Origin: Glaucostegus cemiculus
Taxonomy: Eukaryota
Reading direction: 5' to 3'
NCBI GenBank assembly: GCA_976551045.1
Contig: CDPCPM010000106.1
Span: forward strand, 23,374,001 to 23,438,000
Length of the DNA: 64,000 nt
In this document: piece by piece, positions 4,470 through 60,670 of the stretch
How the letters are laid out: the number at the start of each line of letters is the position of its first letter
How positions within the stretch are numbered: position 1 is the stretch's first letter
Translations under genes and position numbers: made by a program
Notes under the pieces: model-generated
What the model saw: the letters and a program-made list of their open reading frames with translations, nothing else
What the model was told of the DNA's origin: nothing
Databases searched by the model: none

Positions 4470-5230
4470 ATTAAAAACACACACAAATAGATTGTGCAGG
4501 GAATTAATATGGGAAAATGTGAAGTTATGAAAAGAAGAATCAGAGAACTATATTACTCAAATGGAGAGAGACCATGAAATGTTGAGGTGCAAAGGAATGC
4601 CAGAATCGTAGTGCATGAAAAGCAAAAAGTTATCATGCAAATAAAGCAAGTATTTGGGAAGGTGAATGGAAAATTGACCTTAATTACAAGGAATATGGTA
4701 CTGGTATTAGTTTATTATTGTCACTTGTACTGAGGTACAGTGAAAAGCTTGTCTTACAAACCAATCGTACAGGTCAATTCATTACACTGTGTGCAGTTAC
4801 ATAGCTAGTACAAAGTGCATTGAAGTAGTACAGTAAAAAGAGTAACAGTACAGTAAGGAATTTTTGATGCAGCTCCAGAATGCACCTGGAGTACTGTGTG
4901 CCGTTTTAGAATCATAAAGACATATAGCACAAAAATAGGCCTTTTGGGACCGTCAAGTGCCCATCTGTACTAATCCCAGTTACCAGCACTTTGTCCTGTT
5001 TCTTCTCGCAGAAGATTGACAACCTTTGCAGTTCTCCATCCCAGAATGTTGTGGACGCAGAGTCATTGAATGTTTTCGAGACTGAGAGCGGCACACACTT
5101 AAAGTACAAAAGAACCATGGAGTGTGGGGAGAGCAGGAAGGTGCTGTTGAGGCCAAGTGTTCATGATCTTATTGAATGGAGGAGCAGGCTCAAAGTGCTA
5201 ACTGGCCTTCTAATCCTCCCATTTCTGTGA
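4470..5230 (+). mobile_element. Old CR1 fragment interrupted by two younger opposite-strand inserts (about 4697-4855 and 4908-4990)
   Basis: CR1-like KCEV.., 'cacctggagtactgtgtg', and 3' tail 'attgaatggaggagcaggctc'; the first insert starts 'tttattattgtcacttgtactgaggtacagtgaaaagct' like 41575-41710. Confidence 0.7.
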
Positions 5231-5641: not shown

Positions 5642-5980
5642 TACATATTCTTAGAATTGATTCAAGTGCTGAACTGAATCTTTGGGTTGTTTATATTGCT
5701 GAACTCTGCTTGAAAACAGCAAATTTGCTTATCCGGTTATATAAAGAGAGTAGGAATTGCCTGCAGTAAGTCATTTTTTTAATCCTGGGGATTCATTCTG
5801 CTACAATGCACAAATGAATAAAATTTGTTAATTACTGCACAAACTCATGACATTGTGTGCACTTTAATCTGGGAAGAACACTGGTGCAGGCTTTTCTGGT
5901 GTGTGCTGTTGCAGTGAGCACCAGCTGCTTTTTTCCAAAACAACGCAGGGTGTGTTAAGCCATAGCCAGCTAGAACTGAT
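5642..5980. repeat. Unclassified diverged element, copy 1 of a direct pair
   Basis: Aligns co-linearly with 10086-10428 (40/45 and 50/60 identities in two hand-aligned blocks). Confidence 0.9.
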
Positions 5981-7149
5981 TAGGTACCTCCCACTACTTT
6001 CTTGTTTCTTTTAACATCCAAATCTCCATGCTTTCCTACAACCCCATTAACTCCAGTTCTTTTCCCCAGGAAAAGATATCCACCCAACTCTCTGCCTACT
6101 GGATGTTAAAGTTCCTCTTGGCATGAACTTTCCATGACACTGTGGATAATGTCGGCCTGGTGAATGTTTCTCTTTATTCAGCTTGCAGTGTTCTCATCCA
6201 CCACAGCCATTTACAATCTCTTATCTCTGCTGCTCGCTTTTAGTCCTTTTATTTTCTTCTCTAGTTCCTGAAGTCTAAATTTGCAGGCATGAGTACCTTT
6301 AGCAAATTTTGCTACCAGATTTACTTGGACTGTGCTAGGCATTGTTTTTTGTCTGTTTCTACATTCAATTACTACAAATATTCCAAGACCATGCCGGCTT
6401 AAAGGGACACTTGTAACCTCTTGATACTTCATTCACCCTAATCTCCAAAACCATGAGAGTAGGATCAATAATCAGTTGCCCATGCCTACTTCTCCCATGC
6501 AGCTGATCACAGAAGACCACCACCTACTATACTCTGTCACTCTGCATCTATCAACATACCTTTACCTGCTCATATTCATTTCTACAATGCAAGCTGCCTC
6601 TTGCTTCTTCTCCATTGGACTCTCTGCATATCATTGCCATGGCATTTGTCTTAGTCAAGACTGTAGGTATCACCCGCCTTTAAGTCAGAGAATCTTTGAT
6701 CTTTCTGTCTTTTCCCATTAACCTCCTATTGCTAACCTCACAACCGTCTTTTAGATGATTGACTGTAGTTTTACTTTCTAGTTTAAAGGCCATCTATGCC
6801 ATAAATCCTGGTCTGCTTCCTTTTAGTCTTGTTGGCTTGGTTTACTGCACCAGCACCATCCCTGCACATCTCCAGCCTTCTATCAAAGTCAGTAATAACA
6901 CGCTCTATAACTGTGACACTGGTGCTTTATTCCACCTTGATATCTTCAACTCTCCATGGCCCTTATCCTTGTGTGAGTTTTCCCCACCATCCTTTAGCTT
7001 AAGAGGAATGTTGTTACATGGTTCCACTCCTATTTATTCCAATGCAGCAAGTCGATCACCAACAATGGTTTTCACCTCTTCATTGCTTAGTCCGCAGTTC
7101 ACAATGATTTATCCTTCAGGGTTAAATCCAGTTAATGTTTTGTTCTCTG

Positions 7150-7340
7150 GTATCTTGGGGGAGTTGATGAGAATGTGGGGTGAATGAAATAAGTGGGATT
7201 AATGTAAGATTAGGGGAATCTGATGGTGCAGACTCAGTTGGCACAGTCCAAGTGGTCGAAGAGTCAAATTTGCTATATGTATTCATGTCTGCAAACTTTA
7301 GACTCACTGATGAGCCTGTTTTCAATGCTGTGCCTCTTAT
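7150..7340 (+). mobile_element. HE1-type SINE 3' fragment
   Basis: 'ggggagttgatgagaatgtgggg...gggattaatgtaagatt...cctgttttcaatgctgtg' matches the reverse complement of the SINE body/tail at 28700-28830. Confidence 0.55.
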
Positions 7341-7649
7341 AATTCTTATGGCATAATTACATTTCCCAATGAGGTAAAAAAATACCTTAATAAACACTGC
7401 TCTTTTGCAAAAGTAAGGAGCTAAAGCTTCACACAGGCAGGAAGTAGGGTACTGTACTCAAAGGAGAATTCTCTTTGGCTTTAAACTCTGTCAATCAGTT
7501 CAACAATGAATTCCCATCAAAGCAATGGAAATTGATATTTGAATGATAGAATAGAATCACAGAATTGTTACCGCACAGTTGGAGGAGCCATGGAGTCTGT
7601 GCCAGCTCCTAGCAAAACAATGATGTCAGTTCAATTGACCCACTACTTA

Positions 7650-8200
7650 TTATAATGGATGGAGGAAAGGAGGGATCACAGCTTACTAGACACACTGCAG
7701 TGCTAACCACACAAATGGAAGGGGTACTGGATAAGTGGTGCATATTTATTGGCATTCTTCCAACTTTCCAAAGCCTCTCTAGTACTACAGGGCACGCGTC
7801 AGGGGTATGATGCAATAATCCTATTGAGTGTAAAGGCATGCACAATAGTCAAGAATTTGACACCAGCCTGGATGGTCCATCTACTTGATCAGCATCTCAT
7901 TAACCTCCTTAAATATATTTTACCTCCATCCACTGGCAAGCTAGAGCAGCAATGTAAACTACCTGTAGAATGCACATCATCAAGATGTCAGATTTTCTGA
8001 CCCCACTTTCTAAATCCATCCATCGGAAAGACAAGGCAAGCTGTTCTGGGGAAGACCATTCTTCCCAAGCAGCTGTACACTGCTGTGATAATAACAATCC
8101 TTCATCACTGGATCAAAGTTCTGGATCTCCTTTCCCGAAAGACTTGAAGGAGCAGCTCCATCAAATGGACTGCAGCAATTAGGATTAGGTGGCGAACCCA
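7650..8200 (+). mobile_element. Degraded L2/CR1-group LINE 3' fragment
   Basis: Shares motifs (ccttcatcactggatcaaagttctggatctcc; ctgtagaatgcac) with 20720-21420 and 59930-60310. Confidence 0.55.
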
Positions 8201-10085
8201 AACATGGAATACTGTAGATGCTGTAAATCTGAAATTGATGCTTATTGCCCCTTTTCTGATTCTTTGAGTGCAAATGTTGGTAATAGCCTTTATTTCCAGA
8301 ACAGCCAGTAGGAAAATATCTCAGTTTTGCATGAAAAAAGATGTAATATTATCTGCAGGATAGTAGAACTCCAGACAATGGCAGTTCATAGGGTGACAGA
8401 GCACAGTGAACAGATTTTCAGTCATGAAGTCCAAGCTTTTTGAGTTGTGTGTTAACTTTCCTTCTCTGTATTCATGCCAGTAATGTCTTCAAGCAGCAGG
8501 ACATCAATTGGCAGAATCTTGTGGTTGCGGAAACCATGCCAAGTATTAAACAGATAGATCCTCCTATCAGTACAGTAACTGCATAATGTAAAAATTCACT
8601 TAATTCAATGGGTAAAGACAGAGTTTAGTATTATGTTGAGTCCTGTAGGTCAGTAAAATTAAGGGTTTGATCCTCGCACTGATTTAACTGATTTTAACTA
8701 AGGAGGTGATAGGAGGCTACGTTGAAACTTAATTACTGAGAGATAAAGTTGCTGAGAATTTTTTCTACATTCTTATCTAAAGATAAATACAGAGTTTTTG
8801 TGATGAAAAGGGAGAACAGAAAGAATTGAGAAAAAGTGGTTGAAGTTCATCTCTTGTTAGTAGCATTATATTCATAACAAAATAGCATTAAACCCATTTT
8901 TCTGGGCTAGATCTTGCTGGACACTACTCATACACAAAGTTGCTGCGCCCAGACTCCCTTTAGCGGCATTCACTTGGTCTGGATAGGGATGGCTGATATC
9001 TCTGATGCTCTGCACTTGAGAGTTGGGCAGCAAGGCATTGTGAGGCCTTGGGCAGTGAGCAGGCCTCGGGTGGTGTAATCTTGAGGCCATGCCCTGGAAC
9101 ATTCTGTAAGCCCTTGGTAAGAGACAAAACTGGGCACCGATCTTCACTTCCTAACAAGGATAAAATAAATATTTTAACATTTTAAAATTTCTCATATTTT
9201 AAAAATTCTTAAAGCTTTCACAAAAAAAATGAAAACTAAAAACTATATGATAAGTAATGGATAAATAACTTGCCTCCATTCCCCTATGTCCAGGCCAAGA
9301 ATCCAGCTTCAAATGAATGGAAACTGATTTTATGCCAGGTCTGACTTAATATAGGATCAGAGAGCCAAATTCCCCAGTATAATACTGCATATCCCCAGGA
9401 GGATGTGGACTCCTGCAAAAGAGGGCAGTGGCAGAAGCACTGGTATCTTTCGCTTAGAATGTCTTGGAGTTCAACATTGTGCCTTGCATGTACGAGACTA
9501 AGACCTGTTGGGATTTAAACAGCTGAATGTGCACAATTCCAATTGCAACGAGTGACTCCAGTCAGCAGTGTTCATCCCACAGTTCCTTTGCAGTCAATAG
9601 AAATAAATTTTAGAGTATTCCCAAACTTAATATAAATGCTATGTTTTCTACTTTACTAGATATTTTTACAAAGCTGGATTGTTTTTAGTTGAAAATAGAT
9701 TGGTCTTTATTGGAAGCATTAATATGAGTAAGACCTTGCACTTACGGTACCTTTCATGTTCTCAAAACAAAAGTACTCTTAAAGTGTATTCACTATGGAT
9801 AGTTAAATTTGACTACCAATTTATGCATAGCTTAACAGTCACAAATACCAACACAACGAATTCCTTGTTAAACTGGTCTGGTGGATGATGGATGAACCTG
9901 TTTTATCACCATTTTGTTTCATAAAAATACCTTGAAATGATTTCTGTCTACCAATAACCATGATCGCAGCACACAGCAATCTTTTATTACATTTAAGCGT
10001 CACATTTTCAAGTTGTATAAATAATATGAGGAATAAGGAATTTACAACTGCATGGACATCAAAATAACTGAATCAGTCTGCAAAG

Positions 10086-10428
10086 TACATGCTTTTTAAA
10101 ATTAATCATCCAGGGCTGAGCACATTCTGGGTTTGAGCTGCTAAGCCACATGTGATCTGGAAAACAGAGATGTTGTTCTTCCGGTTACATCAAGAGAGTA
10201 GGAATCGCCCGCAGTAATTCATTTTCAGGCTGAGGGACTCATTCCGCTACAATGTGCAAATGAGCAAAATTCATTAATTAGTGCACAAAATCAGCAATGT
10301 ATGTGCACTGTGTTTTGTAACTGCACCCATGCTGGCTTTTCAGGTGTGTGCTCTTAGAGTGAGCACCAGGTGTTTTTTTTCTTCTGCTGCAACATAATGC
10401 TTGTTAAACCACAGCAGTTGGAACTGAT
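10086..10428. repeat. Unclassified diverged element, copy 2 of a direct pair
   Basis: Co-linear match to 5642-5980; retains several CpGs that are TpG in copy 1. Confidence 0.9.
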
Positions 10429-11152
10429 GCTGCTGAAGACCTGTTTGTATTTTTGTAATATAATTTCAGGAAAATTATAGTGAGAAAAGAAGCTGACTAG
10501 TAGAAGCATGCAACAAAGCAAATTAAATTTGATGAGAATGCTTTATGTGAGATACTTTACAAAGCCCTTTATAGTTGTACATAAGTAGAAATTAGCACAT
10601 ACCAAGAAAATTCGTTATTTAGTTAAATTTACTAAATGAAGAGTTATATTTGGGAAGGGAAAAGAATTAAATAATACAGAAAGACTACTATAATCTATTG
10701 TGGCCATTTACTCTCTTTATTTTTCACCTTGCTCAAAGATGGGGTTTCATGTTGGGAGTGGTTGCAGAATTGCTGAGGGTTCTAAAATCTCATCTAAGTG
10801 GCAATGCTAATTGTAAATCACATTAGTGAGGGGTAGAAATTTGTCTGTTTTGGTACGCAGATTGGAATGCAGTGACTGGCCATTGTCTATTCTGGCTGAT
10901 CTTCATTTCCAATGACAGCAATAGAACTGAATATTGGTAGCAGAAAAATATGCAGTGATACAACTCACTCACTATCTGCTTATGCTCAAAATGACTTAGT
11001 ACTTTGTGAGTATCAGCAAACTACTGTAATTTGGAAGCTGGGGAAATCACTGTCATGTCTTATCCTGCCCTTGCCTGCTATTCATACATGCATTTTTATA
11101 AACAGATTACCAAACAGAAATATAGAGCAAGATTTGATTTGTTTTAAAGTCT

Positions 11153-11445
11153 TTAGAACATAGAACAGTACAGCACAGGAACAGGCCCTTCGGCCCACAA
11201 TATCTGCGCCGAACATGATGCCGAATTAATCTAGTTGTCTTCTGCCTGCACATGATCTATATCTCTCCATTCCCTGCTTAGTCATGTATCTATGTAACAG
11301 CCTCTTAAACGCCACGCTCATATCTGCTTCTACCACACCTCCAGCAGTCTATTTCAGGTACCTACCACCCTCTGTGTAAAAAAAACTTGCCCTACACATC
11401 TCCTTTAAACTTTTGCCCTTTTATCTTAAATGCATGTCCTTTCTA
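11153..11445 (-). mobile_element. CR1 LINE 3' end
   Basis: (tagaaca)2 terminal repeat followed by gtacagcacaggaacaggcccttcggcccac, the reverse complement of a CR1-type tail. Confidence 0.85.
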
Positions 11446-12999
11446 CCTCCTCTGCAGTATTAATTCCTGCTGGATTCTTCAGAGACACAGGAACAGGCAG
11501 AACAGGTTGTTCAGCCCCTTGAGTTTGTTCGTGGCTAATTTGTATCTTAATTTGATTCCCATCTTTGAACCAATTGATATTATTAAAATTCACATTTATT
11601 TCAAAATCCAATATAGGAAACACAGAATAGCCTTTCTATTTTCATTCAGTTTCAGTGACTTTTGTATTAACCATCATTAGTCCTCTGTTTAAAAAATCTT
11701 TCCATTTAAGGTATATCTTGCCTGAAAGTTTCCTGTGCCAGCAGGTCACTCTGCACAGACTGAACAAGCCATTAATACTGACAAAGCTGTTAGAGGAGAA
11801 ATGTTAACCAGAACAATCTCTGGGAAGGTGCACTGTACAAGCATGTCAAACAGTACAAAGTAATTACTTAAGATTACTTTTAATTCATTGAATATGTTCA
11901 GAGACATTCTACCTATAAAAAAATTAACTAGGAAGGTTTGAGATTCATGCTTTTCTTCGTGAAAAGTAGTACATGCATGTAAAATAGTTTGCCGAGGTAA
12001 TAATAATTGTGGACATCTGTTTTGTCAGGATTCAGTTTTATTGCTTCTGCTTTGATAAGATGCAGCATTCACTTTACAGTGACACTAGAAATGTTACTTT
12101 CCAATCATGTTATGGTGGGAGAAGTATACTCAAGTACACAGGTGGCAGTATAGCCCAACTCTACTTGAAGTTCAATGCGGAATATTGGATAATTCAAAAC
12201 TAGTCCTAATTGGCATTTTGTAATGTAATCCAAGTTCCAAAGGGAAATTGAAATGTCGTGGTTGATAGCCAGATGGCATTCCACATAGAAGGAGATACTG
12301 CAGAGGACATAAAAGCTACAGTCAAACATCAAGGTCATGCTGGCTTGCATAACATGGTCAAGCACATTTTGTGTCAATTACTTTGGGGCAAAACTTCCAT
12401 TTCTCTGAAATTGCTGGTAGCCTTGCTCTGTTTCAACATGGTACAACATTGGCAGCCCAGCATCCACCACTTTAGCATGGCTGACTACAGTGTAGGGCCT
12501 GCTGCATTCACAGGACCACTTTTACAGATGGTGAGTCTCTGTCCTCTAGACTCAGGGTCAAAACCGTCTGTGTTCAGAGCTCTTGAATGTTTGTGTGTTG
12601 ATTTGTGCTTGCTCCAAGTTTAATGCAGCATAGACTCAGCAGACAGGCTGGCAAGCTGGTTATTCGAGTTGACTCCACAAAATACTGTAAATGTTGAGGA
12701 ATTATTGCAACTTTGCACTCTGCTCACTGGACTCCATGAAACACAGAGAAAAATGCTGACATGGAACTGCTTGCAAGTCTGGGATTTTCATCTTATGTGT
12801 GGGAATTATGAATGTTACCATTAATGCAGGGAGCTGTTGGGATTTCTCCACAGAATTTGGGCCAATGTTTCTTTGTAACTTACTCCTTCCATCAACACTA
12901 CTTAGAATACTCCCTTCTTCTCAGGTGGTCAAGGATGATTTGCTGACATTTCACTTCTATGGGTTCTGAGTTGGATGAAGAGCCTTTGTAGGACTCACA

Positions 13000-15450
13000 G
13001 GCTTTACCCCAAGTGGGTAAAGTAGAGCTTGATAGGGTAGGTGGGTGGGTTGTTTGTGATGTTGTGTGCTCCATCCACTGTTTGTTCCCCTCATGGATAC
13101 TCCAGGTGCTTAGTACCTTCTTCATCACGAAACAGTCACAAGTCCATTAGGATGTAATAGTTTCTGAAGGAGACTTCAAGAATGCTGTTGAAGCAGTTCC
13201 TCTGTTCACCTGGAATTCTCATGCCATGACAGAGCTTGAAATAGAGTGCATGTTTAAGAGTCTGGTGTAAAAGCATGCAGAAAATTTTGTGTATACTTTG
13301 CTTGATGATTAGACCTTAAGTGTGGGGATGTTGGCATGGGAGAGTATGCTGCCGTTAGTTTTCCAATCTTGCCAATGCAGTTGGAGGATTTTGAGGAGAC
13401 GACATTGCTGGTATTTTTAGAGTACTTTGTGGTACCTTCTTCAGCTTGTCTATTAACAGGAATGTGAAAATCACTGCTGCTTGGTAAACCAGTGGTTAAC
13501 TACCGAGCTTGAGGTCTTGGTCTTCAAACACTCTTTTCCACTGTCAGTTGAGTGCTGTTCTGGTGAATTTTGCCATTGATGCCTGAGAGGTCTCTTCCAA
13601 ATAAAGTGATCCATGTATCTGAGCGTCTCGTTGTGAATCCTGACTGTCAGAGTTCATGTCGTCAGGTTATAAGAGGCTCTTCGTTTTACTGGTGTCTAGT
13701 GTAAGGCTCATCTTCTTGTGCACTTCAGTGGTGAACCCAATAAAGATGGGGCTCATTTTCTGAATATACACTCTTATAGGTGCCCTAACTTGATGAATAA
13801 TGTTATGGTTCTGGAGTGAAGATAATGAAGGTCCAATAGTTTCCTGTTTATCATCAACTCCATTCCACTGGGGAGCCTACAACAGATATATTTCTGAGGA
13901 TTGCCAAATATGAGGTGGATTCTCCATAATGCCTTTTGCTTGCTGTATGCATTTATGAAGTTAAAAATGCCAGGTGGAGTGGTCAGGTTGCTCCACATAT
14001 TCCCTGGATTTGTCACATGTCTCTGGGAGGAGCATCTTGCTACTGGGAGGAAGTGATTGAAAAGGTACTTCCAATGACTTGCCCTTTGGCAGACACCATA
14101 ATTTATGGGGCCAATCTTGTCTTCTTTTTCTGGGATCCTCTAGCATGCACTTCTCATGCCAAATGAGAAATATGAGGTCATGAATTCACCCCAGAAGTAC
14201 TCCTCTGCTGTGTTTGAGTATCTCATCGGGGATATCATCTTTCCTCCATTCCTGGCTCTCAGTGAGATAAGTCCTTGGGTGTTTATGTTATAGATGGGCT
14301 TGACAACACTGAGAAGCCCTCATTTATTTTGGTTATTAACTAGTTGTCAGATCTCCTGTGTTCTTTCTACCAAGGTCATGAAATTTTTGTTGGACCTAGG
14401 CCTTCAGATGCCTGTGGTTATGTTTTTTTTATCATGAGAGAATTTTCTTTTGTTTATAATGAAGCTCCTGGATGTCCTGGTTCATTTTCATTAAATCCAT
14501 CTCATTGTTTTGGGTAGAGAAGATGAAAGACTCTTCATAGCTGTTATTTATCCTAGACTTCAAAGTTGTCCAGACATTGGACACTGCTTGGGAATTGTCA
14601 GGATATCTGTGAGAGTCCTTGCATTGCTCTTGAGTCCTTCAACACTTATTTTTCTGTGCTTAAGGGGCTAAATTATTTGAAGTGATAGATTAGGCATTGT
14701 GCATCCCTCACTTAGATGCTGATATTATCTATTAAATACCGAGGCTTGATCAAGGCTGTTGGATCAGACATGGTATTTTTTGTGTTAGTTATGACAAGAC
14801 CATGATCCAATCATTTAGTTAGGATGAATTGGCTTTCCCCATTTCTTCCTTGTCAGTTACACCCTTCCAGAGTTTTATGTCCTTTCCAACCCTGGCACTG
14901 AAATAGCCAAGGAAAATCCTCAGTTAGGGATTGTTCAGGAATTCATCTTTGGCTTCATCCATTGCTTCCAGAGTTGGGTTGTACACTCTGACCTTAGCGT
15001 GCTGATTTGTGTTAGAGTGAACTGGAGGGTCATGAGACATCTTATCCCACAGAGGTGTTACTGAGATGTCAGACTATTTCAATCTTGAAAGCCAAATCTA
15101 TTATTATCATTCTGTTTTGCTCTTCCAGAAGAATATGTGCCCAATTCTCTGTTTCCTGACATGGCCTTCTGTGGCTCATTTCGTCTCACTCAGAGCGATG
15201 ATGTCAATGTGCAAGTGACTGAATTCCCAGGCCATGACAATGGAGCAATGTCAAATCTGTCGCTGTTCCGGTTGTCCAGGAGGGTTGTGATATTCTAGGA
15301 CCTAAACTTTATTTAGGAGGAATGGATAATGTGTGTGCATTGATTCTTTCAACGTGTGTGGCTGTTGCACACCACATGCCACATGGTCTTGATGGAATGA
15401 GGTCTTTGTCCAATGGCAAGGAGATTCAAGGTGACTGGAGACTAGGTTCT
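13000..15450 (-). mobile_element. RTE-clade LINE, decayed, endonuclease through C-terminus
   Basis: Minus-strand peptides IDIIALSETK (about 15180-15210, APE endonuclease motif), KRVFEDQDL (about 13510-13540) and KYQQCRLLKILQ (about 13380-13420) are RTE-type; many stops and frameshifts. Confidence 0.75.
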
Positions 15451-24341: not shown

Positions 24342-24567
24342 TTCCAATGCCGATTAAAGCCAATGGCAGTTCACTTTCTTTGAACATGCAAAAGGATGGC
24401 TCCATTGGAGGAGTGACAAACCCAAATGAAGTGTTCTGCTCAGTCCCAGGCCGCCTGTCACTGCTCAGCTCCACTTCCAAGTATAAAGTGACCGTGGGAG
24501 AGGTTCAGAGGCGTCTATCACCACCAGAGTGTCTGAATGCATCACTACTCGGAGGAGTGCTGAGGAG
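24342..24567 (+). CDS. TFAP2E: AP-2 transcription factor (probably AP-2 epsilon), coding exon equivalent to exon 4, start of basic DNA-binding region
   Basis: Encodes (V)[74 protein letters not shown](R), the invariant AP-2 motif; acceptor ctttattgcag ends 24341, donor gtgagt starts 24568; 226 nt, ends in phase 2 matching next exon. Confidence 0.95.
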
Positions 24568-24949
24568 GTGAGTGAAGGAGGGAATGTTAGTTGAGTAGTT
24601 AACAACTGGGGTTGGAGTCAATGAAAAGAATTGAGAATGATACATAAATTGTACTATTATCAAAGATAAAAATAATAATGAGAGACATTGAGCTTAAAAG
24701 ATGAAAAGGAAGAGAAATAACAAAGGTGATAAAGGGATAAAATTGAAAAAAGAACATGGAGATTGAAAGGAAGATGGTACAAGAAACAGAAAAATTAAGA
24801 TTTTCTAAGCAACAATGAACTTACTGACTATTTTACATCTAACAAAATATAACTAAACTTACGATATACTGAGCAAAAAGATGAAAAGTTAATGAGTTGT
24901 TACTTTTCCATCTGTACACTGGATTTAAACACATGTATGTCTTCCTTAG

Positions 24950-25068
24950 GGCAAAGTCAAAGAATGGCGGTAGATCCTTGAGAGAAAAGTTGGAAAAGAT
25001 TGGACTGAATTTGCCTGCAGGAAGGCGCAAAGCAGCCAATGTCACCTTACTCACCTCACTTGTCGAAG
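24950..25068 (+). CDS. TFAP2E: AP-2 transcription factor, coding exon equivalent to exon 5 (basic region)
   Basis: Encodes (R)[39 protein letters not shown](G); acceptor cttccttag ends 24949, donor gtaggg at 25069; 119 nt, phase consistent with both neighbours. Confidence 0.96.
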
Positions 25069-27230
25069 GTAGGGCAATTTTTAACAGCCACTTAAAGGCA
25101 ACACTATTGGAAAAGCATGCTTATATCTTTTGGATCTGCATGTCCAAACAGGCACATAAGGCACAGAAAATATTAATGGCCTTGTGACTTCATGTGTTCT
25201 ACATAAGAAGTCAACTAATTAGTTTTGAGATTCAAACAACAGCTTGATTCTGAAAAGTCCAACATCAATTTCCAAGGTATGCAACAAACAGTGAATGGTC
25301 TGTCACAAATTGTTTTATATTAAAAGTTGGTAATGTTAAAGCAAATGAGGATTTACAGAAGTTGACTGAACTCACTGCACAGGTCAATGAGGAGACAAAC
25401 TTGATTCTGTTGCCTGACCGTGACTTTTTGATTGTTTCCTTCAAAGGAATCTGTTCTTTGTGGTGGGAAAACTTTTTTTTTGCAGTAAAAAGGTTCAAGT
25501 GGTTCTATCACTCAAAGTAAGTAAGCACAAAGAAAATTTGGAATTTAATGCCAAAAAAACAAATATCTGACAATACAGATAAACTGCAATTAAAGTCACA
25601 GAGTCAGAGAATCTGAGAATTTAGCCCTTTGGCCCATCATGTTGGTGGAAAATGAGTGCTATAATTCCCCTTCCATCACCAGGTCTGTGCCCCTGCAGGC
25701 CGTGGTTCTTCTTGCTATTCTGGAATTCTTTCCCCCCACAGAACTGCTGATGAAAATGCAAATCATTTAGAAATCGAAAACTGAATTCACAGCAACCACT
25801 TCCATTAATATTGTACATTTAATGTTGAAAGATCTGCAAAATATAAAGAAATATGGAGACTGAGCCCAAGAAGTGAAGGTTACGTGTGGAGGGAGGTTGG
25901 TGGCAGCCATATCAGTTGAAAAGTTGGGTTTCAAAGGGGGTCTTAGACGGGGAGAGTGAATAGACATACCAGTTTAAGGAGGAAATTATAGAGCATGGGG
26001 ATTTAATGCTGAAGGCACATCCACCAGCGATGGGGCTAAAGGAAAGTGAGTGCAAGAGATAGTAATTTAATGAGGCGGATTTAGCACCAGTACAAGTTAC
26101 AAGCATACAGAGATGCCAGGCCACAATACATTAAGATGTTACCTAAGATGTTCCAACAGTTTATTTTATTGTTAAGGAACAAGATGGCTAGAAATTTTCC
26201 AGCAGTTGTTTTATTTTTTTAAAACTTCATCAATGAGATCAGAGAAAAATGCTGATGAATTTCTCCCATTGCTATGCGTAGTATTATAAGCCTGAGAGAT
26301 TGAAACAGAGCCAGAAACAGATTACTCCTGCCACCTCTCCCCCACCTCAGCAAATAAATACTGTGACAATCCTTTAAAAATAGAAGTGGATTTAACCAAC
26401 ATTCTTTTGATTCGAATATTTATAAAGTCAACGTCATGACCTTTTGAAAAATAATTTTGCCAAAAATTTATTGTAACATCTTTTGCTCTGAATGGTTTAG
26501 TGCTTTTGATTTGTTTTACATAAGCAGTGAACTTAGCCATCAGCATACAGGATGGAGCACTGCCCCGCTTAAACAGTAAATGTTGACACTGAAACTTTAC
26601 TGGGAACTGGCCTCAAGGAGCTGCAGTTCCCAGCAGTGTGAGTAGTTAGTCACACTGCCGAGTATGGATGTGCAAGGTCCTAGCTGAAGCGGTGATTAGA
26701 GTCATCAGTGTTCGGTTTTCCGTTCTTCTGATAATGTGATGATCACTGAGTATCTGAGAGACAGATGTTAAGTGTATAATACTCTGCAATGCTCTTGTTT
26801 AGAAGAAGTCTTTAAAAGTTTGATGCAGATTGCTATCAATGTAAACAATGGTTCCACCTGAATAGATGAAAGGAATAAAGGTGTGGATGTGTAGCCCTAG
26901 CATGGGGGTCAGGCAGAGGACAAAAAGCTTAAATGCAAAAAAATGGATTTTGAGAAGGCTTTTAAAATGGAGCATGAAGTGGAGAGATGGAGATGTTTAT
27001 ACAGTTCCACAAAGTAAGATTGATAAACTATCTGCTTTCAAAGTGGAATGAAGAGAAAGAGGAGTGGATATGTAAAGGGTCAGATTTAAGCAATGTATTG
27101 GGAAATCTCAGATTGAAGCAATTATGGGTGGATTAAAGGAATAAGATAATGATCTTAATTTAAATACATCAGGAAACTGAAAACAAATATGGATCTGTGA
27201 GGAAAAGGATGGAGGACAGGCAGGACTTTT

Positions 27231-29449: not shown

Positions 29450-31800
29450 ACATTTATTTCTGTCCATAATTGCCATTGAGAAGCAGGTGTGAAGCAGCTA
29501 TCTTCTTCATATCTTGTGGTTTCTCTAGTGAAGATACTTCCAATGTTCCCTTAGTGGCTGAGTCGAGGCGGGCCGGTGGCCGGAGGCGGTTGAGTTGAAG
29601 CGGGCCGGTGGCCGGAGGCAGTTGAGTTGAGGTGGGCCGGTCAGTCGAGCCGGAGGTGGTTGAGCCGTCGAGCTGGAGGTGGTCGAGAACAACTCAGCGC
29701 GGTCGCTGTCCTGATGTCCTCCCTTGTCTCTTTTGTCTTTATTGTCTTGAATGGTTTTGCACCTGGTCCTGCGGAGGACGGTATTTCGCCTCCATGCACG
29801 CTTAATGTATGTGTGGAAGTGACAATAAAATTGAATCTGAATCTGAGTCTGGGGTAGGGAGCTTCAGGATTTAGACCCAGCAGTGAGGAACGAATGGTGA
29901 TGCAGTTCCAAGTTAGGATTTTGGTGACATGAAGGGGAACAGGCAACTGGAATGTTCCTGTGCTCCTGCTGCCCTTGTCCTCTTTTTGGGGTGGAAGTCA
30001 CAATTAGGGAGGTGGAGTTGGAGTAGCCTAGGCGAGTAACTGCAGTGCATTTTATAGTTGGCACATAATGCCACCAGTGCTGGAGGGAACGAATGTTAAG
30101 GCTTGTTGATTGGGTGCTAATCAAGTGAACTGCATTGTTCTCTATGGTGTTGAGCTTTTAGATCTTTATTGCAATTAGACTCATTTAGGCAAGTGGAGAG
30201 TAATTCATTGCACTCCTGTATGTGCCTTGTAAATGCTGGAAAGGATTTGAGGTGACAAGAGATGAGTCACTTGCCACAGGATACCCATCCTCTGACCTGC
30301 TCTTGTAGCTACTGGCATTTTGTGGCTGGTCCAATGGAGTTTCTGGTTAGTGGTGATTACCAGGATGTTGATGATGGGAGAAATTGTTATGGTAATCCCG
30401 ATGAAGTCATGTGTAGATGGTTGGACTTCCTCTGGTTGGAGATTGCTTGGCACTTTAGTGCTGGAATGTTATTTATCACCTATCAGCTCATGCCTGCATG
30501 TTGACCATGTCTTTCTGCATGTAGGAATGGAGCACTTTATTTTCTAAGGATTCACAAATGGAACTGAACATTGTGCAATCACTGGCTCTTTGCTACTGCT
30601 TTGATGTCAAGCTGTCACTCTCTCCTCACCTCTGGAATTCAGCTCTTTTGTCTCTGTTTGCGCCAAGGATATGATGAGATCCAGAACTGTGAGGTCTGGT
30701 GAAACTCAGACTTGCACTGGTGAGTAAGTGCCACTTGCTAACACTGTCATAAACTCTTCAATCATTTTGCTACCAATTCAGAGTAGACTGATTGGGCAGT
30801 AATTACATTTGTCCTGATCTTTGTGGACAGGACACTTTTCCACAGTATTTTAGTTGGACTGGAACAGCTTGGCTAGAGGTGTAACTGGTTCTGGATGCAA
30901 GTCTTCAGTACTACTGTTGGGATGATGTCTGGTTCTGTAGCCTTTGCTGTATCTAAGATTCTCAGCTGTACCTTGATTTCAATAAATGAAATGACTTGTC
31001 TGATGACTGGCTTCTGTGATGGTGGGGAGTTCAGGAGGAAACTGAGGCACTTCTGGCTGAATGTGATTGCAAGTGGTTAGGCCTTGTCTTCAGCACTCAC
31101 GTACTGGGAACCAGCAGCACTGAGCATGGAGATGTTTTTGGATCCTCCTTCTGTTATCTGTTTACACTATTCATTACTAGATGTGGTGGGATTGCAGAAC
31201 ATTGACCTGATCTTTATGCTGTAGAATGGCTTGGTTCTTTCCATTGCATGGTGTTTTGTTAAAAATGCACGTTACCTTATATGGTAGCTTTGACAGAATG
31301 GGACTTCATTTTTAGGTAAGCTTGCACTCTGCATGCCCTCCTACATTCCCCATTGAGCAAAGTCTGATCCCCTGGCTTGATTTTGTCAGTGGAATGAGGG
31401 AGGTGCCAGATCACAAGGTGGCAATTGTCTTGGTGTGCAGTTGCCCTGCTGTTGGTGGTCCATAGCATTTCTGTCAGATCAGTTCTGAGTTGTTCTATTT
31501 GGCACCATGATAATGGCATGCTATATGATGGAGGGTGACCTTGGTGTAAAGACTGGACTTTGTCTCTACGAGGACTGTGTAACAGTCAGTCCTAGTAATG
31601 CTGTCATGGGCATATGCATCTTCAACTGGTAGGTTAGTGAGAATGAAGTTATGTAGGTTTATCCCTTGTGCTGGTTGCTCACTACCTGCACAGATCCAGT
31701 CCGGCAGAACATCTTGTAGGACTGTGAGCTCTGTCAGTGATGGTCTACCAAGCTCTATGTTACTCTGTGTGGTTTGAATTGAAGCACCATGTCATTTAAG
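29450..31800 (-). mobile_element. Long decayed L2/CR1-group LINE, interrupted at about 29555-29850
   Basis: ORF 30205-30453: ISPIINILVITTNQKLHWTSH..VATRAGQRMGILWQV (same family as 20720-21420); decayed FADD-like motif near 30570-30590. Confidence 0.8.
29555..29850 (+). mobile_element. Young CpG-rich non-autonomous insert with 32-bp tandem repeats and Rex1-like tail
   Basis: Unit gagttgaagcgggccggtggccggaggcagtt starting 29560, 29592, 29624; ends tgacaataaaattgaatctgaatctgagtct. Confidence 0.75.
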
Positions 31801-33640: not shown

Positions 33641-34365
33641 AAATCAGAATCAGTTTTATTATCACTGATATATGTCATGAAATTTGTTGTTTTGAGGCAG
33701 CAGTACAGTGCAAGACATAAATTACTATAAGTTACAAAAATAAACAAATAGTACAAAAGAGGAATAACAAGGTAGTGTTAATGGACTGTTCAGAAATCTG
33801 CTGGTGGAGGGGAAGAAGCTGTTCCTGAAACATTGAGTGTTGGTCTTCAGGCTCCTGTCTATCCTCCTTGATGGTCATAACATGAAGAGGGCATGTCCCA
33901 GATGGAGAGCGTCCTTAATGATGGATGCTGCTTTCTTAAGGCACTGCCTTTTGAAGATGTCCTTGACGGCAGGGAGGGCTGTGTCCATGATGGAGCTGGC
34001 TGAGTCTACAACCCTCTGCAGCCTCTTTCAGTTCTGTGCATTGGAACCTCCATACCAGGCGGTGATGCAACCAGTCAGAATGCTCTCTACCGTACATCTG
34101 TAAAAATTTGCAAGAGTTTTTGGTGACATCCAAGTCTCCTCAAACATAATGAAATAGAGCCACTGGTGTGCCTTCTTCATGATTGCATCAATGTGTTGGG
34201 CCCAGGATAGATCCTCTGAGATGTTGACACCCAGGAACTTGAAGCTGCTCACCCTTTCCACTGCTGACCACTCAATGAGGACTGGTGTGTGTTCTCCCAA
34301 CTTCCCCTTCCTGATTGAAGTCCACAATCAATTCCTTGGTCTTGCTGACATTAAGTGCAAGGTTT
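33641..34365 (-). mobile_element. Rex1/Babar LINE 3' part
   Basis: ORF 34028-34327: AVERVSSFKFLGVNISEDLSWAQH..KKAHQWLYF..LANFYRCTVESILTGCITAWYG; tail aatcagaatcag-ttttatt. Confidence 0.92.
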
Positions 34366-36439
34366 TTGTTGAATTCTGCCCTCATTCAGAAAGACATAAA
34401 ACATATTTCTTTCTGAACATAATTGTACTGATACCCTCAGGATGATACTGAGAGACTAGGTTGGACTCATTACTCTGAATTATGTTTTTTCTGTCCCATG
34501 GCATGTTTACTAGGCCTTAGTTTGGGGCCAGGTTCTGGCTGTTGCTTCATCGACTCTGAATGTTATTTGTAAATTATGTACTGATAAATATTTGGGAACT
34601 TTGTTCAAATTCCATGAAGGAGAAACTTGATTTAAGTTTAAACTGGGCGCACAATTGCTTGTGCATTCTTTTGAATGCCATTACATTTGAGAAGAGAGGC
34701 TAACTCCAACGCGCCAAGCAGCAGACTAGAAATTCTGTGAGCTTCGAGAGTACATACTTAGATTTTTTTCAAAATGTCACCTGGACTACTAGTTTGTGGC
34801 TGACAACTGATTGAGCAATTATATCATCTGATTATCCCTGAATTGTGCATCTTATGTCCTGCAACCTGCCTAAATTCCAAACTGGCATACTTATGGAGTC
34901 TAATTCCAGTTTCACTCGGGCATTTTGAGTGATTAATAATCTGGTATTTAGTGCACCTCTGGCAAAATACTGGAGCAGATCATGGCAAAAAAAATTGTGG
35001 TTTACTGCCAGGTTTATATTGGAAAACAGAGATAATTTTTCCTTTCTTTCAAGTGCATAGTTTTTTTTGATTCTAGAACAACATTTGAAGTAAGTTTATT
35101 TTATTCCTGAAGACATTATGCATGTATTGGAGGAATATTAGACTTTAATAATATGCAGTCATATGGCTCATGTGATGGAGAAGTAAAGCTGTGGCGATAG
35201 TTCTGGTAGAACGAAATCATGTCGTTATTGTGGCTAAATCTAATTATCTGGCTGAATAGTCAGAGTTTGTTCAAGGAAATGAAAGGAAATTGCTAATATT
35301 TGGCAAATAATAAACAATTGCTGAGTGTATGATCTGTTTTTCAATATGGCAGATATTTAAGAAAATTAGTCTACTGGCCTTTCTATATTGCATTGAAAAT
35401 TTTTCACTGTAAGCCAAGTGATTGCAAAGAACAGGGAATTGTTTGTTGCTTAAGAGCATGATATAAATGTAAACTATTAATTTTCTTCTTGTCTTCTCAG
35501 TTTTTTTTGACATACTTTCCCTGTTTCTTTGTCTGCCATTGTTTTCTTTAGCCAGCATCTGCCTTTCATTACTTCCTCTCCATTATTATTTTCTCTCATT
35601 GTAACCTCTTCCGGGTGCCCCCCTTGTTTCTTCATGCTGCACACTCTGTCTTTTATTTCTCTTGTTTCTGTCTTTTGAACCTACCTTCAGGTATAACAAA
35701 ATCTTGAATTGAGATCATCTTAAATATTTAATTTTTCTGGTATATTTATTTGAAATTATTTTCCCATCTTTGGAAAAATACTTAATCTTATTTATAATCA
35801 TTCTCCTTTCAGTTCAAGTATCTCTAACCATGATATTCTGTAGACCCTGTTTGTTTTGATCCACCTTAAATCAGCCTGTATGCAAATCAATAGCTTCAGC
35901 GGGTCCTTCCTTTGGCAGTTTTTTTCAGTAGGTATTTTCATTTGGATCATTTTGTGTGTGAATAGCCCAGAAATAGTGCTGTCTCTTGGTTGGTCATTGA
36001 TCATACTAAGTGCCTTCAATTCAGTTTATCCTTTTCCTGGACAGCAAATTTCACTTGCTGAATATTTATTGTTGACCATTTATTACAGACATCAGGAAAA
36101 TTGGGAAATGCAACCAACTATTTTAACACTAAGAGGTGATATATCTGTGTAATAATCTGCAGAGGCCTTATGGGAGATTACAATGTATTTTTCAGCGACT
36201 TTTTTCCAAAATTGATTTTCTAGAGCCCAATTGAAAACTGTTGCAAAGGGACAGTTACTGGACATTTTAAGTTGTCATAAATGGCAAACATTCTGATCCA
36301 GAAAGGAGGATAATTTGAAGGAGATTATCATAAAACAATAGCCTTAAGAGTGATCCCTTTTACTAACTGATGGCTTTGGCAGAACAATGATGTTGCTTAC
36401 TCGGGCAGAACTTAACAGAAATGCACAAGTATCTTCTAT

Positions 36440-39290: not shown

Positions 39291-39432
39291 GTGAGGCTGT
39301 GCACTTGGCCAGGGATTTTGGGTATGTTTGTGAGACTGAGTTCCCCGCGAAGGCAGCGGCAGAATTCTTGACCCGACAACATTCAGACCCAGCTGAGCTC
39401 CATGCCCGAAAAAATATGCTTCTTGCTACCAA
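39291..39432 (+). CDS. TFAP2E: AP-2 transcription factor, coding exon equivalent to exon 6 (helix-span-helix); not in the ORF track
   Basis: Hand translation gives (G)[46 protein letters not shown](K); acceptor ttttgctttctgtag ends 39290, donor gtgagt at 39433; 142 nt. AKAAAE and DPxELHxRK resemble the epsilon paralogue. Confidence 0.95.
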
Positions 39433-40589
39433 GTGAGTACCAGACATCAATCGTCATATTTCTTCATTCAAGCAGAATGTATAGTCTACCTAAACTGGAC
39501 TCCAGCTGTCTAGAAAGAACCATTTTGAACATGAATATCGTATATAATTGTAAAAATTCAGCAAGGATAATTCAACATAAGGAATAGGTGCTTGAGTAGT
39601 CTGTTCACTTATCCAAGCTTGCCTTGCCATTCAACAAATTAAAAGCTTATCTCCTATAATCCATTCTTCCAGTCTATTTCTTGATTCCCTTCAAAATTTC
39701 ACATCCTCTGGACATCTAAAGATGACTTCTGCCAAAGCAAATTTATAGAAAAGCAAAGAATTTCAAAGCATGTTCTTGCACTGTTGGTTAACTGCATCTT
39801 GTTAAATATTATATTCAGGATGTGCAACATTACTTAAGTCAGAATTGTATCCAAGAGTTCTGCAGTCAGAAAGGTTACTCTGGTAACTTATGGTTTTTAT
39901 GTTTGTTAATAATAATCTTGTGGAATCTGCTAGTATGTTTACAATGCAGTGTACTGCTCTAAACATTGAAGAGCTTTGTTTTTAGTTCTCTTATTCTAGT
40001 ACATTAAGGAGGCATTCAAAGCGAACACAGTGCTGGTAAGGTTATGCAGCATTCTGGAAATAGACAAAATATAGTTTCTTTGGAACACAATAATTTGTAA
40101 TGTTCCAAAATTCAAATGTGAAAAGCTCTCTTTGAAGGGCCTAAGTAACAGTTATATAAACACATAACACAGAGCTAAAATATGCGACTTGAAAGAAGTC
40201 AACACTCTCTTCCATAATCTCTTGATTTTATGAAATGAAAAAGGATTAGAAAAGAATATGTGGACATTTCTTCTTGATTAGAATTAATATTGCCACCAAA
40301 TAATATTTAGATTGGAATGCAGGAAATCTAAGTTATCTTACTTTTGTGGAATGCAACATTCTGTGTTTTTTTTTAATTTTAAGTTCCCTGTGCTTTTGAT
40401 GTACTAATGCTCAAAGAACTGTGGATCTAGGCAATGCTGAGGTGTCCAGTAGTGTGCAATACTTGCCTGCCATCCACAGGCCACAGCACTCATGAAGCCC
40501 ACCTCAGCATTGCCTTGAATGGGACCTACCTTATCCAGCCTATGCAGCTTTCCTTAGGCCCCACCACTGACTACATACATAATTGTTTA

Positions 40590-41574: not shown

Positions 41575-41790
41575 TGGTAATTGGTTTATTATTGTCACAT
41601 GTGCTGAGATACAGTGAAAAGCTTTGGCTTGCAAGCTATCCAGACAGATCATTCCATACATAAGTACATTGAGGTAGTACAAAAGGGAAAATAATAACAG
41701 AGTACAGAATCTAGTGTTTCAGTTGCTGAGAAAATGCAGTGCAGGTAGACAAATAAAGTGGAAGGACCATGATGAATAGTTTGAGAGATC
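41575..41790 (-). mobile_element. Short Rex1-tail-type repeat
   Basis: tttattattgtcacatgtgctgagatacagtgaaaagct...; same family as 4697-4855 and 42007-42143. Confidence 0.75.
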
Positions 41791-41994: not shown

Positions 41995-42143
41995 TACCAG
42001 ATTGCAGTTCTGTATTCTGTTACTTTTTTTCCCTTTTGTACTATCGCAATGTACTTATGTATGGAATGATCTGTCTGGTTGGCATGCTAGCCAAAGCTTT
42101 CCACTCTATCTCAGCACATGTGACAATAATAAAACAATTACCA
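41995..42143 (+). mobile_element. Short Rex1-tail-type repeat, inverted relative to 41575-41710
   Basis: Ends cacatgtgacaataataaaacaattacca; about 90% identical by hand to the reverse complement of 41575-41710. Confidence 0.8.
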
Positions 42144-51648: not shown

Positions 51649-51940
51649 GCAGATCTGTAAAGAGTTCACAGATTTATTAGCTCAGGACCGGTCTCCATTA
51701 GGAAACAGCCGCCCCACAGCAATCCTTGAAGCTGGAGTCCAGAGCTGCTTGACTCACTTCAGCCTGATTACACATGGCTTCGGGAGCCCTGCCATCATCG
51801 CTGCATTAACTGCCTTCCAGAATTACCTGGTGGAGGCTATAAAGGGGCTGGATAAGATGTTCCTGAGCTCATCCAACAGCCATCCCTCGGGGGAATCCGG
51901 GACTAAAAGCACAGACAAAGAGGCCAAACATCGGAAATAA
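51649..51940 (+). CDS. TFAP2E: AP-2 transcription factor, terminal coding exon (dimerisation helix and C-terminus)
   Basis: Encodes (K)[99 protein letters not shown]; long polypyrimidine acceptor ends 51648. [21 protein letters not shown] and AKHRK match TFAP2E as I recall it. Confidence 0.95.
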
Positions 51941-59929: not shown

Positions 59930-60315
59930 AACAAATCAGCCAGGCACCCAGTCAGCGTTCCCTCCACTACTGATGCACAGTGGCTACAGTTCACACCATC
60001 TACAAAATATACTGTAGGTACTCACCCAGGCTACTCTGCCTGCATTTCTCAAACCCACAGACTCTGCCACCAAGAAGCACAAGAGCAGCATGGGAACACC
60101 ACCACCTGCAGGTTCCCCCCATGTTGTGCACCATCCTGACTTGGAAATTTTTGATGCCCCTTCAGCATTTCTGGTACTAAATCCCAGAACTTCCATCGTG
60201 GAAGCCCCTTCACCAGAAGGACTACAGTGGTTAAGGGCAGCGGTTCACCGTCACCATCTCCACGGCGATTAGGGACAGGCAATAAATATCGGTCGTGCAA
60301 GTGTTGCCCAAAACC
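59930..60315 (+). mobile_element. L2/CR1-group LINE 3' end
   Basis: Co-linear with 21010-21400 (tgcacagtggct..., accacctgcagg, ggcaataaat). Confidence 0.8.
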
Positions 60316-60344
60316 TGAATCTGGGCAACAGCTTGGAGAATGAA

Positions 60345-60670
60345 GATCAAAGAACACATAACCAGGGTCTTCAGCCCACGGTGTCTGCTCTGACCCATAA
60401 CGCCAAATGAAACTAATTCCATCCATGATCCATGTCCCTCCATTCCCTTCATGTTCATGTGTCTGTGTAAATGCCTCATGAACACCACCATTGTGTCTGC
60501 TTCCACCACCACCCCTGGCAGCCAGTTCCAGGCACCTACCAGTCTTTTTGTGAAAAAACTTTCCCCTCTCACCTTAAAGCTATGCCCTCTGGTATTTGAT
60601 ATTTCTATCCTGGGAAAAAGATTCTGATTATCTACCATCTTATAATTTTATAAACTTCTATCAGGTCTAA
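60345..60670 (-). mobile_element. CR1 LINE 3' end
   Basis: ORF 60231-60638: LFPRIEISNTRGHSFKVRG..FFTKRLVGAWNWLPGVVVEADT. Confidence 0.9.

What the first reader, a model, noticed from the sequence alone, without database searches (positions are those of the whole stretch)
5642..10428. Twin ~340-bp non-coding element 4.45 kb apart with shared motifs and hairpins
Seen: 5642-5980 and 10086-10428 are direct, co-linear copies (40/45 and 50/60 identities in core blocks) with patchy conservation and no match to any repeat family I recognise (no A/B box, LINE tail or ORF). Both keep CCGGTTA, GAGAGTAGGAAT, CTACAATG..CAAATGA (Sox plus octamer-like), TTAATTA, an inverted TGCACA..TGTGCA pair, and GGTGTGTGCT...GTGAGCACCAG followed by a T-run. 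The last hairpin has a possible compensatory swap (CTG-ttg-CAG vs CTC-tta-GAG). Many differences are CpG-decay type. Inference: duplicated (shadow) enhancer of the AP-2 gene, a pair of intronic structured RNAs, or an unclassified ancient TE.
Basis: partly seen in the sequence, partly recalled or inferred. Interest (0 to 1): 0.7.

Follow-up and report, generated by a model that had tools for sequence, protein, structure and literature searches.

The report
Twin conserved element in AP-2 intron
An intron of a developmental AP-2 transcription-factor gene in a vertebrate (likely a cartilaginous fish) holds two old copies of a 340-base non-coding element, found only there and conserved in related species; they are likely a duplicated pair of gene-control switches (enhancers), a known kind of thing, with a weak hint that they may instead fold as an RNA.

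Summary
The twin is real: 5642-5980 and 10086-10428 are direct copies (core 76% identical, E 2.6e-39), and homology stops at those edges. Both lie in the ~43-kb third intron, sense strand, of an AP-2 gene, by synteny and elimination likely TFAP2E. Genome-wide DNA and pattern searches gave only these two full copies, none near the four other AP-2 genes, and no Rfam hit. In four related species the cores differ by 1.3-3.7% against 6-8% in flanking DNA, so both copies are constrained. The duplication is roughly 9-16 times older than those species splits. CpG decay explains only 3 of 53 differences, and the octamer-like site is in one copy only. Best reading (0.6): an old locally duplicated conserved element acting as twin enhancers. 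A shared RNA fold (three hairpins plus a long-range helix, three compensatory swaps in the core) beats shuffles only weakly (p 0.02-0.05), about equally on both strands, with four end or internal pairs broken: 0.2. A dispersed transposon family and coding or cassette-exon readings are disfavoured. No expression or activity data were available. New member of a known kind.

The parts
5642..5980 (+). Copy A of the twin element (full homologous extent)
10086..10428 (+). Copy B of the twin element (full homologous extent)
5709..5934 (+). Constrained core of copy A: 3 listed differences in 226 bases in relative X3, 6.0% in flanks
   Evidence: table was cut at 40 rows
10157..10379 (+). Constrained core of copy B: 4-5 differences in 223 bases in each of four relatives, 5.9-7.9% in flanks
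10086..10156 (+). 5' extension of copy B: homologous to copy A but changing at about the flank rate (3-6 differences in 71 bases per relative)
5731..5739 (-). Shared ETS-like / MYB-like site (CCGGTTA block; 10179-10187 in B); motif names recalled
5754..5896 (+). Predicted long-range helix P2: 5754-5765 pairs with 5885-5896 (10202-10213 with 10330-10341 in B); 9 pairs invariant, one internal pair broken in B
5792..5818 (+). Inverted repeat / predicted hairpin H1 (10238-10264 in B) with 2 compensatory and 1 wobble change; carries a Sox-like ACAATG and a CAAATG E-box (names recalled)
5829..5834 (.). Shared TAATTA homeodomain-like palindrome (10275-10280 in B)
5836..5861 (+). Inverted pair TGCACA..TGTGCA / predicted hairpin H2 (10282-10307 in B); 6 invariant pairs, divergent loop
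5898..5934 (+). Predicted hairpin H3 (10343-10367 in B) with a G-C/C-G swap at the closing pair, followed by a CAGSTG E-box and a T-run; relatives' changes fall in its 3-base loop (5911, 10355)
24342..24568 (+). AP-2 gene exon 4 (end approximate); closes the ~43-kb intron that holds the twin (exon 3 lies upstream of the window, at G000:C106 ~23355391)
24950..25070 (+). AP-2 gene exon 5 (end approximate)
39291..39433 (+). AP-2 gene exon 6 (end approximate)
51649..51940 (+). AP-2 gene last coding exon

Best explanation
The two stretches are copies of one non-coding element in the long third intron of an AP-2 gene (likely TFAP2E), present as full copies only there and constrained in related species; they likely arose by one old local duplication and likely act as twin, partly redundant DNA enhancers of that gene. 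Shown: two copies, their place, their constraint, no reading frame. Inferred: a short tandem duplication (about 0.7-1.0 neutral substitutions per site ago) whose unselected flanks have decayed; each copy kept a shared string of transcription-factor-like sites (ETS/MYB-like, Sox-like, two E-boxes, homeodomain, T-box-like), and differences inside these stay within the tolerated classes (GGAT/GGAA, CAGCTG/CAGGTG). Each copy would loop to the AP-2 promoter 33-38 kb upstream and drive overlapping neural or neural-crest expression; the divergent spacers would allow fine differences in timing or tissue. On this reading the inverted repeats are symmetric binding sites or chance.
For: Location in intron 3, sense strand, of a TF_AP-2 gene. 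NCDN lies 0.6 Mb away on the same contig (NCDN-TFAP2E linkage in human is recalled), and four other AP-2 loci lie elsewhere. Only 2 matches genome-wide with either copy as query and with two tight patterns. No hit under E 0.8 in 624 kb around all five AP-2 genes by nhmmer or in 730 kb by covariance model. Constraint: X3 8/449 in cores vs 6.0% flanks, p 4e-5; B core X9 p 0.018, X12 p 0.003, X13 p 2e-4; X12 piece over A 10/272 vs 7.6%, p 0.016. 7 of 12 sites variable among relatives fall at the 55 of 223 columns where A and B already differ (p 0.013), so both copies share one constraint profile. 7 consensus motifs are shared at aligned positions vs 1.5 in background (p 0.0015; list chosen after seeing the sequence). 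[quoted passage not shown]
Against: No chromatin, reporter or expression data. The motif list was recalled and post hoc, so its p value is inflated. The four relatives are close (6-8% flank divergence) and share many changes, so the constraint tests are not independent. Conservation in bony vertebrates was not testable. The shared fold scores better than the three nulls on the plus strand (p 0.02-0.05), which an enhancer does not predict. The target promoter is assumed; intronic elements can serve neighbouring genes.
Confidence: 0.6

Rival explanations
1. The copies are a pair of structured RNA elements in the AP-2 pre-mRNA intron (or small RNAs cut from it): a closed helix P2 enclosing hairpins H1 and H2, followed by hairpin H3 and a U-run. 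They would act on splicing, intron turnover or as an unknown small RNA.
For: RNAalifold on the two copies gives -41.2 kcal/mol with 7 double changes, 3 of them in the core (H1 twice, H3 once). Against dinucleotide-preserving and genomic nulls with the same conservation pattern: energy p 0.020, 0.048, 0.028; double changes p 0.043, 0.058, 0.035 on the plus strand. 12 of 14 sites variable in relatives are unpaired (p 0.096), one paired change keeps the pair (10246, G-U to A-U), and both H3 changes are in its loop. Two distant conserved blocks are complementary (P2).
Against: Each copy alone folds no better than shuffles (z -0.47, -0.09) and adopts a different overall MFE; single hairpins score z -0.8 to -2.4. 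The minus strand scores about as well (p 0.013, 0.033, 0.088), as DNA palindromes would. Four helix-end or internal pairs are broken in one copy (read), and one relative's change (10264) breaks the H1 end pair. Only two divergent sequences; boundaries were chosen after looking. No Rfam match. Internal T4-T7 runs argue against a Pol III transcript. No C/D, H/ACA or Sm boxes shared by both copies were seen by eye (box patterns recalled).
Confidence: 0.2
2. The copies are the last survivors of an ancient transposable element family, inserted twice here (local hop) and later co-opted. This concerns origin; the present function could still be enhancer-like.
For: Homology has sharp edges. Several inverted repeats and a final hairpin plus T-run loosely recall non-autonomous rolling-circle elements (recalled). 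Loose patterns gave more hits than the reversed control: 9 vs 0 and 34 vs 4, including one 24-of-25 match at C63:20600059.
Against: None of the 35 of 39 extra hits that got a locus extends convincingly into the rest of the element (best nhmmer 10.4 bits; covariance model E 1.5 or worse). The reversed controls contain extra CpG, which would lower their counts (read from the patterns). In relatives only 1-3 contigs lay on copy B, while a repeat at 7140-7323 reached depth 3,800-19,000 in the same runs. No terminal inverted repeat or target duplication was seen by eye. Families below about 70% identity or with few copies could be missed; no Dfam/Repbase library was available.
Confidence: 0.09
3. 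Each copy holds a 46-base cassette (poison) exon or an alternative last exon that truncates AP-2 before its DNA-binding domain.
For: Both copies have an AG at 5718-5719 / 10166-10167, a donor-like GTAAGT / GTAATT 46 bases later, and an in-frame TAA there.
Against: The candidate acceptors have 8 and 6 pyrimidines of 16 against 11-15 for the four real acceptors of this gene. All 8 codon differences in the putative frame change the residue (read). AATAAA lies in copy A only. Constraint extends about 200 bases past the donor.
Confidence: 0.04
4. A neutral old duplicate, or one copy functional and the other a decaying passenger.
For: The 5' extension of copy B changes at about the flank rate.
Against: Both cores are separately below the flank rate (A p 0.001, B p 0.018 in X3), and A-B similarity is blockwise.
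Confidence: 0.03

Closest known systems
Vertebrate conserved non-coding elements (CNEs) near developmental regulators (Woolfe et al., PMC526512; abstract and passages read)
   Same: Few hundred bases, non-coding, constrained, inside a developmental transcription-factor locus, low copy.
   Different: Those were defined by human-Fugu conservation and assayed; here conservation is shown only across close relatives and between the two copies, and there is no assay.
Shadow enhancers born by duplication (Ness et al., PMC13345019; abstract and passages read)
   Same: Two homologous elements at one gene with body similarity and no flank homology, as in 31.5% of mouse and 62.2% of fly enhancer-hit pairs.
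   Different: Those pairs have measured overlapping activity, and the fly pairs are mostly recent (median 93% identity); this pair is 76% identical, old and untested.
Hmx uCNE/dCNE tandem-duplicated enhancer pair (Papadogiannis et al., bioRxiv 10.1101/2020.09.07.281501; passages read)
   Same: An ancient tandem-duplicated CNE pair kept at one developmental locus; both copies are enhancers there. The authors call such long retention apparently unique.
   Different: The Hmx pair duplicated with its gene, is over 1 kb and is traced to lamprey; this pair sits 4.45 kb apart in one intron of an unduplicated gene, is 340 bases and is not traced beyond close relatives.
Intronic structured RNAs (snoRNA/scaRNA, intronic ribozymes, splicing-regulatory folds; classes recalled)
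   Same: Sense-strand intronic position, paralogous copies in one host gene, predicted hairpins.
   Different: No Rfam match, no shared boxes or catalytic core seen, weak and strand-symmetric folding signal.

Membership tests
Conserved non-coding element (CNE) | Non-coding | tested here: met
   2-5 stops in all 12 frames of the cores; 2- and 1-base indels between copies
Conserved non-coding element (CNE) | Evolves slower than neighbouring DNA | tested here: met
   1.3-3.7% vs 5.9-7.9% in four relatives
Conserved non-coding element (CNE) | In or near a developmental regulator gene | tested here: met
   Intron 3 of a TF_AP-2 gene
Conserved non-coding element (CNE) | Conserved across distant vertebrates (shark to human or teleost) | not testable with these tools
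   No other vertebrate genomes held; the one metagenome hit was a chance match in unrelated GC-rich, gene-like DNA
Duplicated (shadow) enhancer pair | Two homologous elements at one gene, not a dispersed repeat | tested here: met
Duplicated (shadow) enhancer pair | Each drives expression, in overlapping patterns, of the same gene | not testable with these tools
   Needs reporter, chromatin and deletion data
WGD-derived duplicated CNE (paralogous loci) | Copies next to paralogous genes on different chromosomes | tested here: not met
   No match in 400 kb fetched around the other four AP-2 genes
Known ncRNA family (Rfam 15) | Covariance-model match at gathering score | tested here: not met
New structured RNA family | Significant covariation on one strand | tested here: inconclusive
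   p 0.035-0.058 plus strand, 0.11-0.13 minus strand, two sequences only
New structured RNA family | Expressed RNA with defined ends | not testable with these tools
   No RNA run was available to lay
Transposable element family | Many dispersed copies | tested here: not met
   2 full copies; 35 of 39 loose hits checked, none extends; very old or small families not excluded
Transposable element family | Terminal repeats, target-site duplication or tail; Dfam match | tested here: inconclusive
   None seen by eye; no repeat library available

The most novel reading that the evidence does not exclude
The twins are the first two members of an undescribed vertebrate intronic RNA fold (three-way junction plus terminal hairpin and U-run), kept in duplicate for hundreds of millions of years inside the TFAP2E pre-mRNA, where it controls processing of the 43-kb intron or is released as a small RNA.
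Probability: 0.15. Interest if true: 0.75.

Novelty: new member of a known kind. Interest (0 to 1): 0.38.

Why it matters
As twin enhancers, the pair is a natural experiment: one ancestral switch copied within a single intron and kept twice, with about a quarter of core positions changed. That marks which sites matter and allows a direct test of redundancy versus subfunctionalisation. My searches for TFAP2E enhancers (listings only) showed no paper on an intronic TFAP2E element or on this gene's regulation in sharks or rays. Old same-intron CNE duplicates without gene duplication are little described. If the shared fold is real, it would be a new vertebrate RNA family in a neural-crest and pigment-cell regulator.

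Tried and rejected
Rfam at gathering and E-value thresholds: nothing on either copy. Metagenome pattern scan: 1 hit, 21 matching letters only, flanks unrelated, rejected as chance. Viral contigs: 0 hits. Sequencing runs: no RNA holder listed, so expression is untested; of 13 runs listed I laid 4 (X3, X9, X12, X13; one per other organism). Run X13 has no long piece over copy A's core (a hole proves nothing). Paralogous AP-2 loci: no homologue. Loose pattern hits: excess over control, but no extension in 35 of 39; 4 hits had no locus and were not checked. The first folding null (column shuffle, z -3.4 and -4.0) ignores dinucleotide content and was replaced by the stricter nulls. Considered by eye from recalled patterns and dropped: iron-responsive element (CAGUGA loop in A only, stem does not fit), U-rich triple-helix element (no shared lower stem), Pol III gene (internal T-runs; TATA in A only), SECIS, C/D and H/ACA boxes, microRNA hairpins (stems too short), canonical Sox-Oct composite (wrong geometry; octamer-like in B only), AP-2 autoregulatory site (no GCCNNNGGC in either copy). 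Earlier findings by sequence and by place: none.
Full report
Observation. The window holds two direct copies, A (5642-5980) and B (10086-10428). blastn gives a core of 5709-5934 against 10157-10379, 75.8% over 227 columns, E 2.6e-39; the next best hit of either copy in the window has E 0.26. Over the full extent 233 of 339 positions match. The 5' and 3' extensions align better than all 2000 shuffles each, while the next 80 bases on each side do not (p 0.68 and 0.51). Nothing else in 1000-8000 matches 8000-15000 beyond 19-base words. Two remarks fail: only 3 of 53 core substitutions are CpG vs TpG/CpA, with 26 transitions and 27 transversions, and the octamer-like site is in B only.

Context. 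The window is G000:C106:23374001-23438000 in a 2.85-Gb genome. Four exons in the window match Pfam TF_AP-2 on the plus strand. Exons 1-3 lie upstream at about C106:23346711, 23347400 and 23355391. The twins therefore sit on the sense strand of a third intron of about 43 kb, 33-38 kb from the start codon. The genome has five AP-2 loci. Two are adjacent on C102, one is on C63 and one on C917. Neurochondrin lies 0.6 Mb away on C106. With the recalled human linkage NCDN-TFAP2E and the recalled TFAP2B/TFAP2D tandem, the gene is most likely TFAP2E; no call named it.

Copy number. Either copy as a DNA query finds 2 places of 2 candidates. Two tight patterns find the same 2 places and 0 in controls. 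Looser patterns gave 9 hits vs 0 in the reversed control and 34 vs 4, which at first looked like a dispersed family. Of the 39 extra hits, 35 came with loci. None extends convincingly into the rest of the element (best 10.4 bits against about 390 for the twins), and the reversed controls contain extra CpG, which would lower their counts. One 24-of-25 match at C63:20600059 has unrelated flanks and stays unexplained. nhmmer over 624 kb around all five AP-2 genes and a covariance model over 730 kb found nothing under E 0.8. In four related species only 1-3 contigs lay on copy B: its orthologue, in two runs also the A orthologue, and one 35-base piece. A repeat at 7140-7323 reached depth 3,800-19,000 in the same runs. 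The tools warn that counts of repeats are lower bounds, so a small or very old family is not excluded.

Constraint. Contigs of four other organisms were laid on the region (4 of 13 listed runs). In X3 the cores differ at 8 of 449 sites against 6.0% in the flanks (Fisher p 4e-5; A alone 3/226, p 0.001; B alone 5/223, p 0.018). B's core differs at 5/223 in X9 (5.9% flanks, p 0.018), 5/223 in X12 (7.0%, p 0.003) and 4/223 in X13 (7.9%, p 2e-4). The X12 piece over A differs at 10/272 against 7.6% (p 0.016). Caveats: the table showed 40 of 607 rows, so A's list is probably complete only for X3; the four species share many changes, so the tests are not independent. Seven of 12 variable sites fall at the 55 of 223 columns where A and B differ (p 0.013), so one constraint profile governs both copies. 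B's first 71 bases change at about the flank rate: homologous but not now constrained.

Age. The corrected A-B core distance is 0.29, which is 9-16 times the core distance to the relatives and equals about 0.7-1.0 neutral substitutions per site if rates were steady. That fits the loss of flank homology. An absolute date needs a rate that I do not have; faster change right after duplication would inflate the estimate.

Coding and splicing. All 12 core frames carry 2-5 stops. A 46-base exon-like segment exists in both copies, but its acceptors have 8 and 6 pyrimidines of 16 against 11-15 for the gene's real acceptors, and a poly(A) signal lies in A only. All 8 codon differences in the putative frame change the residue (read). 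Disfavoured.

RNA structure. Rfam gives nothing. Each copy alone folds like its shuffles (z -0.47, -0.09). The two-sequence consensus is more ordered: a long-range helix P2 encloses hairpins H1 and H2, followed by H3 and the U-run, with 7 double changes among 47 pairs, 3 of them in the core. Against a column shuffle it scored z -3.4, but that null ignores dinucleotides. With dinucleotide-preserving and genomic nulls the energy p is 0.020, 0.048 and 0.028 on the plus strand and 0.013, 0.033 and 0.088 on the minus strand; for double changes 0.043, 0.058 and 0.035 against 0.13, 0.12 and 0.11. Of 14 sites variable in relatives 12 are unpaired (p 0.096); one paired change keeps the pair, one breaks the H1 end pair, and both changes in H3 lie in its loop. 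Four end or internal pairs are broken in one copy (read). This is a hint, not a result: the conserved blocks are somewhat more self-complementary than chance, which fits RNA helices or symmetric DNA sites.

DNA motifs. Seven recalled consensus sites are shared at aligned positions (ETS-like, MYB-like, Sox-like, two E-boxes, TAATTA, T-box-like) against 1.5 in background with the same conservation pattern (p 0.0015). The list was chosen after seeing the sequence, so this is weak. Two differences stay inside their motif class (GGAT/GGAA; CAGCTG/CAGGTG). None of the 14 variable sites falls in the roughly 40 motif columns (read; about 2 expected, not significant). No AP-2 site was found.

Mechanism. 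Shown: two copies, local, non-coding, both constrained. Inferred: one old tandem duplication, then retention of both as partly redundant enhancers of the host gene (0.6). Zebrafish tfap2e is expressed in olfactory placode, telencephalon, tectum, hindbrain and migrating pigment precursors (PMC2940735, passages), tissues where such inputs are plausible; the tissue is not determined here. Rivals: structured intronic RNA (0.2), co-opted transposon relic (0.09), cassette exon (0.04), neutral relic (0.03).

Comparison with what is known. It works like a CNE enhancer (23 of 25 tested were active; PMC526512 abstract) and like duplication-born shadow enhancers (33.9% of mouse sets; PMC13345019). The nearest named case is the Hmx uCNE/dCNE pair, which however duplicated with its gene (bioRxiv 2020.09.07.281501, passages). 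It is not a genome-duplication dCNE. Literature searches (listings only, open-access library) showed no description of this element; supplements were not read and CNE catalogues there could list it. Unchecked notes from this scan report similar old intronic duplicates in other cartilaginous fishes, so the kind may not be rare.

Verdict. Real, constrained, two-copy, and new as an instance, but most likely a member of a known kind. Interest 0.38; 0.75 if the RNA fold is confirmed (probability about 0.15).

Noticed in passing
L073:1501-1525 (G000:C63:20600059-20600083): A 24-of-25 match to the H1 block (Sox-like site plus E-box) with unrelated flanks, 15 Mb from the AP-2 gene on the same contig; rarer than a rough chance estimate (about 0.01) would give.
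   Followed up: partly
window 41575-41694 and 42024-42143: 120-base inverted repeat, 92% complementary, 329 bases apart, related to a 45-base stretch at 4706-4750; looks like two copies of a dispersed repeat in opposite orientation in AP-2 intron 6.
   Followed up: no
window 7140-7323: Fragment of a very high-copy repeat between the twins (depth 3,800-19,000 in four relatives' contigs); further moderate-copy fragments near 7508-7691 and 8060-8243.
   Followed up: no
window 24342-51940 and G000:C106:23346711-23425940: This AP-2 gene spans about 79 kb (intron 3 about 43 kb), while the AP-2 gene on C63 spans about 10 kb between the matching exon 2 and last exon.
   Followed up: partly
window 44136-45102, 60049-60647, 33837-34445: Decayed LINE-like reverse-transcriptase fragments in the ORF list (class recognised from recall).
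   Followed up: no
window 29556-29651: Three head-to-tail copies of a 32-base GC-rich unit.
   Followed up: no
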